From NCBI RefSeq assembly GCF_055900595.2, contig NZ_CM148325.1: DNA of 64,000 bases, one strand, 5' to 3'. Positions within the stretch are counted from its first letter, which is position 1. Each line of letters starts with the position of its first letter. Below are positions 9,001-12,000 of the stretch, one piece after another. The position numbers were made by a program.

Positions 9001-12000
9001 GGAGGCAAATACCAGCAGGCGATACAGGCCGCAACGGCAGCGGTACAGGGACTGGTCGGCGGTAATCTGAGTGCAGCCCTGGCAGGTGGTGCAGCGCCGT
9101 ATATTGCTGAAATTATCAAACAGACCACCCCGGATGGTGCGGGACGTGTGGCAGCTCATGCAGTAGTGAATGCAGCCCTGTCTCTGGCACAGGGTAAGAA
9201 TGCTCTTGCTGGTGCCGCAGGCGCTGCCACCGGCGAGGTGGTGGGAATGATAGCCACACAGATGTACGGTAAGCCGGTGAGTGAACTGAGCGAGACAGAG
9301 AAACAGACGGTCTCCACGCTGGCAACGGTTGCTGCCGGTCTGGCCGGTGGTCTGGTGGGAGACTCAGGTGCTTCAGCGGTAGCCGGAGCACAGTCAGGTA
9401 AGACGACGGTTGAAAACAATATGCTGAACGTGATAGCCACTGAAACAGCGGCTAATACGGCAGCAGCAATAGCTGGTGCTACAGGTAATGCCAGTAGGGA
9501 TACCGGGAATGATAATAGCTGGGATATTGGTGGTGGTTGTGAAGGCTCACGGGAACAGTGTGCTGTACGTGACCCGAGTCGCGATGGTACCCGGGGACCG
9601 GGGCATGTGCTGAATGGCGACAATACAGACGAAAACAAACAGCCGAATCTGGGCAAAGACGTAGCGAGCGCTACGGATAAGGATAAAGCTGAGCTTGGTG
9701 GTGCAGGTGCTGGAACACCGGGTGGGTGGGGACCGGATAATGAAGAAAAAGCCCGTCATCAGGAGGTTCAGCAACAACGATTTGATGAACTGAGTAAAAT
9801 ATATGATAAAAGTCACCCGGTCGGAGAGTTAACAGTGGATGGGCAGACTATCAGGCAGAGTTCGGTAAGTAACCGTTATGGTACGACGAAAGTGTTTGAA
9901 AGCCAGAATCTGACGGATAAACAGATCCACAATTACGCACAACAGCTGGCAGGAGATACACCGCTGAAAGAGGTTCGGCCGGGGATCTATACTGCAAAGC
10001 TGAATAACGGAACATCGATCACGTTGCGGAATTTATCGTCGTCCCAAGAACAAACAGGCGCCAGATGGACTATTGATATTAGAGGGAATCAGCAATTGGC
10101 TGAAATTGCACATAAATACGGACGTCAGGTTGAAATTAAATTTAGGTGAGCATTATGTTGACTGAAAATGAGTATCGTGAAACAGCTGACGCATCGGAGA
10201 TGCAAGCGTTAAGTGGTTTATGGGCTTACAGTATTCCAGATCATGTTGATAGCGCAGTATTCAGTTTTGATGAAAGGAAAAAACTCTTTTTCTGGATATT
10301 TGAGCGCCTTCTGAAAGAAGGGCGCATCAAACTCGCCAAGCACGGTAAGTTTCTGGAAGGCAGTGTTGACGAGCAGGTTGAGCGTTTCCGACAGGCATTT
10401 CCAAAAACAGAAGAAGAGATGGAAGACGGTATCTGGTTTTTTGATGAGAGCTGTCCGGGAGGAGCTGTCTGGGTGCTTGAAGATGGCTCTCTCGAATGGA
10501 CCTGATAAACCCGTTCATAGTGCAGGATGCGGTGCAGCAAGCGTATAACAACGATATGACAGCCTCAGGTTTTGGAACGGGAGGCAAATACCAGCAGGCG
10601 ATACAGGCCGCAACGGCAGCGGTACAGGGACTGGCCGGCGGTAATCTGAGTGCACCCTGGCAGGTGGTGCAGCGTCGTATATTGCTGAAATAATCAAAAA
10701 TACCCCCCCCGGACTGTGCGGGAAGTGTGGTAGCTCATGCCTTGGTGAATGCCGCACTGGCTGTGGCACAGGGAAATAACGCTCTTGCCGGTGCCGCAGG
10801 GGCTGCCACCGGCGAGGTGGTGGGAATGATAGCCACACAGATGTACGGTAAACCGGTCAGTGAACTGAGCGAGGCAGAGAAGCAGACGGTCTCGACACTG
10901 GCAACGGTTGCTGCCGGTCTGGCCGGTGGTCTGGTGGGAGACTCAGGTGCTTCAGCGGTAGCCGGAGCACAGTCTGGTAAGGCGGGGGGCGAAGGTAGTT
11001 GGTTCGTGAATTGGTTGGAATTCTGTAATATTAATAATAAAAATCGCTAAATGGTTATTCGGGGATACTCGATTGAATAAATTTATATATTTTCTGTTAG
11101 CAGGTATTTTATTTTCGGGACAGGTGGATGCAGCACGGGGAAGAAAACCCTGCTCGGGTGCTAAAGGTGGCATTTCACACTGTACGTCAGACGGACGTTT
11201 TGTCTGTAACGACGGAAGTCTGAGTCAGTCGAAACGCTTTTGTTCCGGTTATGGCGTGGCACCCGGCAAACGTCAGGTGAAATCACCTGTCACCACGAAG
11301 CCGGTTCAGAAGAAAAAATCAGTGGCTGTCCGGAAGGTGCCACAACCGTCGGTGGCTGAGAAAGATGAGTCTGTACCGGTCACTGAGCCGCGTAAACCCA
11401 CCTGTGCGCCGCTTTATATGGCCAGCAAACCCGGATTCACGCATCTGCCTATTTGTTCCGGTAATCAGTATTAATCTGACACTGAAATAGCAGAGGCATC
11501 TGTGCTCAGCCTGCAGTTAACCCTGTATTGGCGAGCATCATAAAGCCGGACATCCTTCCGGGTATAAATATTTCCGGAGGGCGTTAATCAGAAATATTCA
11601 GTTACGGAGAAGGAAAATAAAGGAAAGTCATGGCAGGAAGAAAAAAAAGATGATAATGCAGCGGGATTTGTCCTGATTTTAGTTTGCGTTATTCTCTGGG
11701 GGATTTATGTGGCGGTCAGGACGCTGATAAACCTTAATGAGCGCTTTATTGATGCAGTATCGAATCCGGCAGGTATTATTGGTTTGTTTTTTGGTTTGCT
11801 TACCGTATTTGCAATTTTATTTCGTTTTTTTATTTACCGGAGACTCAGAAAGAAAACAGCAGCATTTGAGCAGGCCGTTTCAGAGCTGGTTCAGAGAGAA
11901 CGGGATTTTAATGAAACTGTCAATGCCGCTATAGCCCGGGGAATACGACAGGAAAAGGAGCAGCTTGCCAGACGTCGTGAGGAATTTCATACCACCAGAA

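What the first reader, a model, noticed from the sequence alone, without database searches (positions are those of the whole stretch)
10521..11050. Orphan cdiA-CT remnant created by a ~465-bp direct repeat of the pretoxin region, now frameshifted with VENN replaced
10521-10984 repeats cdiA 8941-9404 almost exactly but with small indels that split it over two frames, and the repeat ends in [27 protein letters not shown] instead of VENN plus toxin. This is the footprint of toxin/immunity cassette exchange by homologous recombination, here decayed. The two repeats could still mediate deletion or amplification of the cdiA-CT/cdiI segment between them.
Basis: seen in the sequence. Interest (0 to 1): 0.45.

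Follow-up and report, generated by a model that had tools for sequence, protein, structure and literature searches.

The report
Dead-end cdiA pretoxin stub in E. coli
This is a non-coding leftover copy of the end of a bacterial contact-toxin gene (cdiA) that closes a toxin/immunity cassette array in some E. coli; it is a known, already annotated kind of relic, and related strains show that recombination with it deletes toxin and immunity genes.

Summary
The repeat is real. Window 10507-10981 repeats cdiA 8928-9402 (spacing 1579 bp) at about 88-91% identity, which is not "almost exact". It has a 1-bp deletion (10654/10655) and a 1-bp insertion in a poly-C run (10703-10710). These two indels compensate, so only a 16-codon middle piece is out of frame (stop at 10691-10693). 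Homology stops at GGTAAG (10976-10981), just before the VENN codons. An AT-rich tail (10982-11072) then runs into a YdcA-family gene.

The element lies in a decayed class-IV-type cdiB-cdiC-cdiA-cdiI locus on a tRNA-Phe island. It has no VENN, no toxin and no immunity gene, so it is a pretoxin stub rather than an orphan cdiA-CT module. The stub plus tail occurs in 32 of 5426 complete E. coli genomes, always as the last unit of the array. RefSeq annotates it as a frameshifted pseudogene.

Near-identical strain pairs show single homologous crossovers onto this stub:
- CE0026f to CE0011b removed all toxin and immunity genes and left a toxin-less cdiA.
- TUM1880 to SFE8 removed two downstream modules.

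dN/dS of 0.33 argues that the copy came from another cdiA allele, not from local duplication. This is a known kind of feature (Poole et al. 2011) and of low interest.

The parts
3986..5725 (+). cdiB (TpsB/ShlB-type outer-membrane transporter), intact ORF of 579 aa
   Evidence: Pfam ShlB 2.8e-108, POTRA_2, POTRA_3
5735..6172 (+). cdiC (HlyC-family lysine acyltransferase), 3' end lost to a deletion
   Evidence: Pfam HlyC 1.7e-30 covering profile positions 1-119 of 127. Collinearity with GmM062 breaks at window 6162-6165, which corresponds to L001 4160/5232.
6124..10149 (+). Truncated cdiA ORF (1341 aa). No start codon, signal peptide or TPS domain. Three in-frame-length deletions (1071, 120 and 3951 bp) relative to strain GmM062.
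   Evidence: Only Fil_haemagg and PT-VENN Pfam hits. BLAST against L001/L002. No complete E. coli genome shares this architecture.
8928..9402 (+). Repeat copy 1: pretoxin (PT) region of cdiA, followed by the VENN codons at 9409-9420
9421..10149 (+). cdiA-CT (toxin region after VENN); toxin family uncharacterised
   Evidence: No Pfam or NCBIfam domain. Only a weak similarity of the linker region to CdiA tRNase chains (E 0.009).
10146..10505 (+). cdiI immunity gene (DUF596)
   Evidence: Pfam DUF596 1.6e-17. Annotated as a DUF596 protein directly after cdiA in relatives. Weak match to PDB 2o5h.
10507..10981 (+). Repeat copy 2: terminal pretoxin stub. -1 deletion between 10654 and 10655, +1 in poly-C 10703-10710, in-frame TAA at 10691-10693. 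Ends at GGTAAG (10976-10981), just before where VENN should be.
   Evidence: Pfam PT-VENN 8.6e-15 covering only profile positions 1-42 of 52. RefSeq annotates it as a 'VENN motif pre-toxin domain-containing protein, frameshifted, incomplete' pseudogene.
10982..11072 (+). AT-rich tail (GC 0.39) that replaces VENN and toxin. Contains poly-G 10984-10989 and the ORF stop at 11048-11050. It is constant in all arrays, whereas the YdcA gene's other genomic context shares no homology with it.
   Evidence: Found in 33 genomes, always at this locus. Homology of T6SS-type islands starts only at 11073/11074. GC value. No other source found among the fetched loci or in 100,044 species genomes.
11073..11474 (+). 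YdcA-family secreted small protein gene; the right flank of the cdi array, not part of it
   Evidence: NCBIfam PRK10040 sub-threshold hits. RefSeq name 'YdcA family protein'. The same block follows a T6SS cluster in about 72 other genomes.

Best explanation
The feature is the terminal, toxin-less stub of an orphan cassette array at a decayed class-IV-type cdiBCAI locus. It is about 475 bp of cdiA pretoxin-coding sequence from a different cdiA allele. Its left edge sits one base after the stop of the DUF596 cdiI gene. Its right edge is cut off immediately before the VENN codons and joined to a fixed AT-rich tail that abuts the YdcA-family gene.

It encodes nothing functional. It has no start signal, two indels, an internal stop, and no VENN, CT or cdiI.

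Its only activity is as a homology tract. RecA-type recombination between any upstream pretoxin segment (main cdiA or an orphan) and this stub deletes everything in between and regenerates a hybrid stub that keeps the tail. This explains why it persists as the last unit in every array. A crossover with the main cdiA downstream of the indels gives an in-frame cdiA with no toxin and removes the immunity genes.

Shown: the repeat, its anatomy, its conservation, and two natural collapse events onto the stub.

Inferred: the window's own stub arose the same way, by a crossover between the orphan that follows the DUF596 cdiI and an older terminal stub. Also inferred: VENN was lost by an old deletion.
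For: - Repeat and anatomy.
- Locus identity (ShlB/POTRA cdiB, HlyC-family cdiC, Fil_haemagg plus PT-VENN cdiA, DUF596 cdiI).
- Distribution: the stub plus tail occurs in 32 of 5426 complete E. coli genomes, and a 33rd (06-00048) keeps only part of the tail. It is always next to the YdcA-family gene, and the left extent of the stub varies: about 475 bp in about 22 genomes, about 324 bp in 5, about 140 bp in 3, and fused to cdiA in 2.
- CE0011b compared with CE0026f (flanks 99.8% identical): 55 consecutive main-cdiA-type informative sites are followed by 33 of 34 stub-type sites. This is one crossover in a 41-bp interval. The resulting cdiA ends ...[27 protein letters not shown] and all CT/cdiI genes are gone.
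- SFE8 compared with TUM1880 (flanks 99.84% and 99.92% identical): the two alignments overlap by the shared 140-bp pretoxin segment, and the Ntox25 module and the next orphan are deleted.
- Window 10480-10651 is identical to TUM1880 orphan o1, including the -1 deletion, but o1 continues into VENN plus CT.
- dN/dS between the two window copies is 0.33. Synonymous changes are in excess (P = 7.5e-4) and changes by codon position are 12/9/28, so most divergence arose in functional cdiA alleles.
- Identical runs of 77, 73 and 50 bp exceed the roughly 25-bp minimum for E. coli homologous recombination (runs; the threshold is from my own knowledge).
- Literature: orphan modules, VENN-less and cdiI-less cdiA fragments, and the recombination/deletion model are described in PMC3150448. 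cdiC as the hallmark of class IV loci is described in PMC8510554.
Against: - The middle third of the window's stub (about 10675-10840) belongs to a sequence lineage not seen in any intact cdiA or VENN-bearing orphan of the 5426 genomes. The best non-stub match is 93%. The parents of this particular stub are therefore not identified, and the direction of events (collapse or insertion) is inferred rather than shown.
- The origin of the tail is unresolved. It has no match elsewhere. There is only a hint that it once followed a CT linker region, from a 72%-identical fragment in strain 06-00048.
- No expression or recombination data exist for this strain.
Confidence: 0.85

Rival explanations
1. The tail is the ancestral 3' end of a naturally toxin-less cdiA (adhesin-only). 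Toxin/immunity modules were later inserted upstream of it by double crossovers, and each insertion left the old end as the last unit. On this view the stub never had VENN or a toxin.
For: The tail is constant in all 32 arrays while the left edges of the stub vary. A cdiA ending in the tail exists as an intact annotated CDS in CE0011b. No VENN-bearing version of the tail-linked sequence was found.
Against: CE0011b is demonstrably a recent recombinant of a CE0026f-like array, with a clean switch of informative sites and 99.8% identical flanks. The tail is AT-rich (GC 0.39 against 0.59 for the pretoxin region). Its poly-G run differs in length between strains (6, 7 or 10 G), which shifts the frame, so no conserved C-terminal peptide exists. 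Strain 06-00048 has a CT-linker-like fragment abutting the tail.
Confidence: 0.08
2. The repeat arose by local tandem duplication of this strain's own cdiA 3' region and has since decayed neutrally.
For: Direct orientation and close spacing (1579 bp).
Against: - dN/dS is 0.33 with a significant synonymous excess, where about 1 is expected for neutral decay.
- Divergence between the copies is about 10%, while the same stub is 99% or more identical across strains from different hosts and continents.
- The left part is identical to an orphan in TUM1880 that carries a different toxin.
- The left boundary lies exactly at the end of the cdiI gene, as in orphan modules.
Confidence: 0.04
3. The stub is retained because it does something: it encodes a small PT-domain protein from ORF 10727-11050, or it supplies the promoter or 5' UTR of the YdcA-family gene.
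For: ORF 10727-11050 (107 aa) is open and has a PT-VENN Pfam hit. The tail is conserved at 99-100% in 32 genomes and lies directly upstream of the YdcA-family start codon.
Against: - No sigma-70-like promoter was found in 10500-11072 by the consensus scan, and there is no Rfam match.
- The stub is of very different lengths in different strains (about 140 to 475 bp).
- Homopolymer length changes alter the reading frame between strains.
- The YdcA-family gene functions in about 72 genomes with an unrelated upstream region.
- RefSeq annotates the stub as a pseudogene.
Confidence: 0.05
4. The repeat is an assembly artefact.
For: The window's cdiA shows three deletions not seen in any complete genome, which could reflect collapse of repetitive FHA sequence during assembly.
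Against: The cdiI-stub-tail-ydcA arrangement is reproduced base for base (99-100%) in more than 20 independent complete genomes.
Confidence: 0.01

Closest known systems
Orphan cdiA-CT/cdiI modules downstream of cdiBAI loci (Poole et al. 2011, PLoS Genet, PMC3150448), e.g. E. coli EC93 o1 and EC869 o1-o11
   Same: It lies directly after the cdiI gene. It is a cdiA fragment without translation start signals. It retains a variable length of pretoxin homology to the upstream cdiA. Recombination between such segments loads or deletes modules, and the paper proposes exactly this deletion consequence.
   Different: It has no VENN motif, no CT and no cdiI, so it carries no toxin/immunity information. 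It is always the last unit of the array.
[quoted passage not shown] 2011)
   Same: The same class of object: a VENN-less, immunity-less cdiA fragment in a cdi region.
   Different: Those were noted only in passing in other genera. Here the fragment is a conserved terminator of an E. coli class-IV-type array, with natural recombinants documented.
Class IV cdiBCAI locus of E. coli STEC_O31 (Halvorsen et al. 2021, mBio, PMC8510554)
   Same: The gene order cdiB-cdiC-cdiA-cdiI with an HlyC-family acyltransferase between cdiB and cdiA. An Ntox25 orphan, the toxin type of CdiA-STEC4, occurs in the related TUM1880 array.
   Different: The window's copy is dead. cdiC is truncated, and cdiA lacks the TPS domain and most of its middle, which probably includes the receptor-binding region. 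It carries a different toxin with a DUF596 immunity gene.
Orphan rhs-CT arrays and Rhs core-repeat recombination (background knowledge; Rhs is discussed in PMC3150448)
   Same: Displaced C-terminal fragments that retain upstream core homology and can recombine with the main gene.
   Different: A different protein family and demarcation motif (PxxxxDPxGL rather than VENN). Not examined here.

Membership tests
Orphan cdiA-CT/cdiI module (sensu Poole et al. 2011) | Located downstream of a cdiB-cdiA-cdiI cluster | tested here: met
   cdiB, cdiC, cdiA and DUF596 cdiI lie immediately upstream. The stub starts one base after the cdiI stop codon.
Orphan cdiA-CT/cdiI module (sensu Poole et al. 2011) | A cdiA gene fragment with homology to the region upstream of VENN and without its own translation initiation signals | tested here: met
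   About 475 bp at about 89% identity to the cdiA pretoxin region. Homology begins without a start codon context, and RefSeq flags the fragment as 'missing N-terminus'.
Orphan cdiA-CT/cdiI module (sensu Poole et al. 2011) | Encodes the VENN motif that demarcates the CT | tested here: not met
   Reads ...[12 protein letters not shown]... where cdiA reads ...AQSGKTTVENN. The Pfam PT-VENN alignment stops at profile position 42 of 52.
Orphan cdiA-CT/cdiI module (sensu Poole et al. 2011) | A toxin-coding CT sequence after VENN | tested here: not met
   Only 22 codons of AT-rich tail precede the stop at 11048-11050.
Orphan cdiA-CT/cdiI module (sensu Poole et al. 2011) | Followed by a cognate cdiI immunity gene | tested here: not met
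   The next gene is a signal-peptide-bearing YdcA-family gene that also occurs after T6SS clusters in about 72 genomes without cdi. Immunity function was not tested experimentally.
VENN-less, cdiI-less cdiA fragments (noted in Poole et al. 2011) | A cdiA-homologous fragment in a cdi region that lacks VENN and lacks an associated cdiI | tested here: met
Class IV cdiBCAI locus | A cdiC (HlyC-family lysyl acyltransferase) cistron between cdiB and cdiA | tested here: met
   Pfam HlyC 1.7e-30 at 5735-6172. Definition from PMC8510554.
Class IV cdiBCAI locus | Class IV receptor-binding domain (LPS-core binding, acylated Lys) | not tested
   The middle of cdiA, corresponding to L001 8055-12000, is deleted in the window. 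The RBD of relatives was not compared with CdiA-STEC4.
Functional CDI (two-partner secretion) system | CdiA with an N-terminal signal peptide and TPS domain for CdiB-dependent export | tested here: not met
   The 1341-aa ORF has no TPS/Haemagg_act hit. The deletion corresponding to L001 4161-5231 removes the cdiA 5' end.

The most novel reading that the evidence does not exclude
The VENN-less terminal stub may not be mere debris. It could be a self-perpetuating array terminator that gives class-IV-type cdi loci a built-in, one-step route to disarm. A crossover with cdiA downstream of the indels yields an in-frame, toxin-less CdiA, possibly still an adhesin, and purges all immunity genes. The variable poly-C and poly-G tracts would modulate whether the product is in frame. 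On this reading selection, not only recombinational geometry, would maintain the stub.
Probability: 0.1. Interest if true: 0.45.

Novelty: already known. Interest (0 to 1): 0.2.

Why it matters
The finding matters little on its own. Orphan cdiA fragments and their recombination have been textbook features of CDI loci since 2011, and this exact element is already flagged as a pseudogene in RefSeq.

The modest added value is comparative. Near-isogenic strain pairs give clean natural examples of the long-proposed deletion model, namely a single crossover between pretoxin segments that removes toxin and immunity genes. They also show that the last, VENN-less stub is a recombinational fixed point that survives every collapse. 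This helps in reading cdi arrays in genomes, and it warns that a cdiA ending in ...[24 protein letters not shown] is a disarmed recombinant rather than a new toxin.

Tried and rejected
- Donor search. I looked for an intact (VENN plus CT) version of the stub's own sequence lineage in 5426 complete E. coli genomes. The best non-stub match is 93%, so no donor was identified.
- Tail origin, distant search. A distant BLAST of the tail alone found only the same locus in 33 genomes.
- Tail origin, local search. A short-word BLAST against all fetched loci found nothing else.
- Tail origin, cross-species scan. A codon-degenerate pattern for [10 protein letters not shown] against 100,044 species genomes gave 0 hits.
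- Empty-site test. I first took strain 06-00048 as an 'empty site' that would define the array's right boundary. It is instead a large deletion from the cdiB 5' end to the tail, retaining a CT-linker-like fragment.
- Mutated VENN. TTVENN to AGGEGS would need mostly A-to-G changes, with 10 of 18 nt matching. This is too weak and post hoc, and the same bases match a Gly-rich CT linker about equally well. I left it unresolved.
- Promoter in the tail. A candidate -35/-10 pair picked by eye failed on recount and was not reported by the scan.
- RNA families. Rfam found nothing in the region.
- Toxin identification. No Pfam, NCBIfam or convincing PDB match was found.
- First literature search. The terms were too broad and returned mostly irrelevant papers.

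Full report
**Observation**

- The repeat finder gives three co-linear direct-repeat blocks between 8928-9414 and 10507-10993, at spacing 1579/1578 and 87-91% identity.
- MAFFT and BLAST agree (10507-10981 against the cdiA copy at 89.3%, E about 1e-171).
- A global alignment has 88.1% identity over 496 columns and exactly two 1-bp indels. One base is missing between 10654 and 10655. One base is extra in a poly-C run at 10703-10710.
- "Almost exactly" therefore overstates the match. The longest identical runs are 77, 73 and 50 bp.
- Three-frame translation shows that the two indels compensate. The large ORFs 10496-10693 and 10727-11050 are in the same frame. Only about 16 codons between them are out of frame, and these contain TAA at 10691-10693.
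- Solid homology ends at GGTAAG (10976-10981). cdiA continues ACG ACG GTT GAA AAC AAT (TTVENN; VENN codons at 9409-9420). The copy instead continues GCGGGGGGCGAAGGTAGT... and reads [22 protein letters not shown], with the stop at 11048-11050.

**Context**

Pfam identifies the following genes:
- cdiB at 3986-5725 (ShlB 2.8e-108, POTRA).
- An HlyC-family acyltransferase at 5735-6172 (1.7e-30).
- A 1341-aa ORF at 6124-10149 with Fil_haemagg repeats and a PT-VENN domain.
- A DUF596 protein at 10146-10505.
- A partial PT-VENN hit (profile positions 1-42 of 52) for ORF 10727-11050.

An acyltransferase cistron (cdiC) between cdiB and cdiA is the stated hallmark of class IV cdi loci (PMC8510554).

The window's locus is dead. 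Relative to strain GmM062 (L001) it lacks 1071 bp covering the 3' end of cdiC and the signal peptide and TPS domain of cdiA. It also lacks 120 bp and 3951 bp inside cdiA. No complete E. coli genome shares this architecture.

The cluster lies in an island bounded by tRNA-Phe (49814-49889) and a P4-type integrase. The island also carries defence genes.

**Distribution**

The window is E. coli. The cdiI-stub-tail-ydcA arrangement recurs at 97-99% identity in about 22 complete genomes from humans, cattle, pigs, a platypus, water and sediment. RefSeq annotates the stub as a [quoted passage not shown] pseudogene.

The 94-nt tail alone occurs in 33 of 5426 genomes, always at this locus and always directly upstream of the YdcA-family gene. 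Across those genomes the left extent of the stub differs:
- About 475 bp (window type, about 22 genomes).
- About 324 bp (SFE8, A31 and three others).
- About 140 bp (TUM1880 and two others).
- Continuous with a full cdiA (CE0011b, PS2Canimalfeces12).
- One further genome, 06-00048, has lost the cdi locus and keeps only part of the tail.

TUM1880 carries a long array of orphan modules between cdiA and the stub. The stub is therefore the constant last unit of a variable orphan array.

**Recombination evidence**

1. CE0011b and CE0026f are 99.8% identical over 12 kb upstream of the junction. CE0026f has a main CT/cdiI, the DUF596 module as an orphan, and the stub. CE0011b has none of these. Across the junction, 55 consecutive informative sites match the CE0026f main cdiA, and 33 of the next 34 match its terminal stub. 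This is one crossover within a 41-bp interval (L004 11871-11913, equivalent to window 9273-9315 and 10852-10894). The resulting cdiA is an intact CDS ending ...[27 protein letters not shown].
2. SFE8 aligns to TUM1880 at 99.84% up to the Ntox25 orphan's pretoxin segment and at 99.92% from the terminal stub onward. The two alignments overlap by the shared 140 bp. The Ntox25 module and the following orphan are missing.
3. The window's own cdiA matches the CE0026f main cdiA up to VENN (97.5%) and the CE0026f orphan 1 from there on. This is as expected if an orphan was loaded onto cdiA, or the converse.
4. Window 10480-10651 is identical to TUM1880 orphan o1, including the -1 deletion and the left boundary at the cdiI stop codon. 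Orphan o1, however, continues into VENN and a CT.

They also explain the stub's persistence. Any crossover onto it regenerates a hybrid stub that keeps the tail, and nothing homologous lies beyond it that could remove it.

**Origin of the copy**

Between the two window copies there are 24.5 synonymous and 24.5 non-synonymous differences. dN/dS is 0.33, changes by codon position are 12/9/28, and the synonymous excess has P = 7.5e-4. Most of the divergence therefore accumulated while both sequences were parts of functional cdiA alleles. It did not accumulate by neutral decay of a local duplicate.

The middle third of the stub belongs to a lineage not found in any intact cdiA among the 5426 genomes (best match 93%). 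The precise parents and the direction of events for this particular stub therefore remain inferred.

**The tail**

- The YdcA-family/GIY-YIG/exonuclease block also follows a complete T6SS cluster in about 72 genomes (for example 55989 and C5).
- In those genomes homology starts exactly at the YdcA-family start codon (11073/11074). The tail 10982-11072 therefore belongs to the cdi side of the junction.
- It is AT-rich (GC 0.39 against 0.59 for the pretoxin region).
- Its poly-G run is 6, 7 or 10 G in different strains, so no conserved peptide is encoded.
- Strain 06-00048 has lost everything from the cdiB signal-peptide region onward but keeps a 109-nt fragment 72% identical to a CT linker region (window 9608-9715) abutting the tail. 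This hints that the terminal unit once had a CT.
- No other source of the tail was found.

**Comparison with what is known**

Poole et al. 2011 (PMC3150448) described the following:
- Orphan cdiA-CT/cdiI modules.
- Variable retention of sequence upstream of VENN.
- cdiA fragments that lack both VENN and cdiI.
- The model that recombination loads an orphan onto cdiA while deleting the intervening modules and immunity genes.

The present element fails three defining features of an orphan module (VENN, CT, cdiI). It fits the VENN-less fragment class. Nothing about its mechanism departs from the published model.

**Verdict**

The feature is a known, already annotated kind of relic. Interest is low (0.2).

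The only mildly novel reading is that the terminal stub is a selected "disarm" element rather than a geometric survivor. I rate this at about 10%.

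Noticed in passing
window 6162-6165, 8015-8025, 8860-8864: The window's cdiA carries three deletions relative to GmM062, of 1071, 120 and 3951 bp. All three are multiples of three, with 4-11 bp of junction overlap. They remove the cdiC 3' end, the cdiA TPS domain and most of the middle of cdiA. None of 5426 complete E. coli genomes shares this architecture. They could be real repeat-mediated deletions or an assembly collapse of FHA repeats.
   Followed up: partly
window 48447-49889: tRNA-Phe (GAA, 49814-49889, minus strand) lies next to a P4-type integrase ORF (48447-49667). 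The cdi locus therefore sits in a tRNA-Phe-associated genomic island.
   Followed up: partly
window 11709-30774: Defence-island cargo lies directly downstream of the stub. It comprises a PD-Lambda-1-like T5orf172/GIY-YIG gene (11709-12875; PADLOC 5.5e-89), a NERD+UvrD helicase (13069-14856), an Old-family AAA+TOPRIM nuclease (16785-18491), a PAPS-reductase/DUF3440 gene (19508-20542) and type I R-M hsdR/M/S genes (24877-30774).
   Followed up: partly
window 15270-16643; L009 and L010: A single ORF fuses ImpA_N and VasL domains, which looks like a T6SS remnant. In E. coli 55989, C5 and about 70 other genomes, the same YdcA/GIY-YIG/exonuclease block follows a complete T6SS cluster. Homology to the window begins exactly at the YdcA-family start codon (11073/11074). 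This suggests that cdi-type and T6SS-type versions of the island share a right arm.
   Followed up: partly
window 10703-10710 and 10984-10989: Homopolymer tracts inside the stub vary between strains. Poly-C is 8 C here and 9 in CE0026f. Poly-G is 6 G here, 7 in TUM1880 and SFE8, and 10 in A31. This could be slippage or homopolymer sequencing error. It changes the reading frame of the stub and of any fused cdiA.
   Followed up: no
L008 5546-6068; hits H179-H183: Other strains have lost the whole cdi array through different large deletions. In 06-00048 the cdiB 5' end is joined to a CT-linker fragment plus the tail. In three genomes a POTRA (cdiB) fragment is joined to the middle of the YdcA-family gene. 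In two genomes cdiC is joined to the YdcA-family 3' end.
   Followed up: partly
window 9421-10505: The resident toxin domain has no Pfam, NCBIfam or convincing PDB match. Its DUF596 immunity protein has only a weak match to PDB 2o5h (E 1e-5). This toxin/immunity pair appears uncharacterised, and in many relatives it is an orphan rather than the main module.
   Followed up: partly
window 10982-10999 compared with 9403-9420: The 18 nt that replace TTVENN match the cdiA sequence at 10 of 18 positions, and most differences are A-to-G (ACGACGGTTGAAAACAAT against GCGGGGGGCGAAGGTAGT). The same bases also resemble a Gly-rich CT linker in strain 06-00048. Whether this is a mutated VENN, a deletion junction or chance is unresolved.
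   Followed up: partly
L005 (PS2Canimalfeces12) 1269-12018: This strain has a full cdiA followed by a second, 2.8-kb partial cdiA copy that is the one fused to the tail. It may be a large duplication or an unusually long orphan. I did not analyse it.
   Followed up: no
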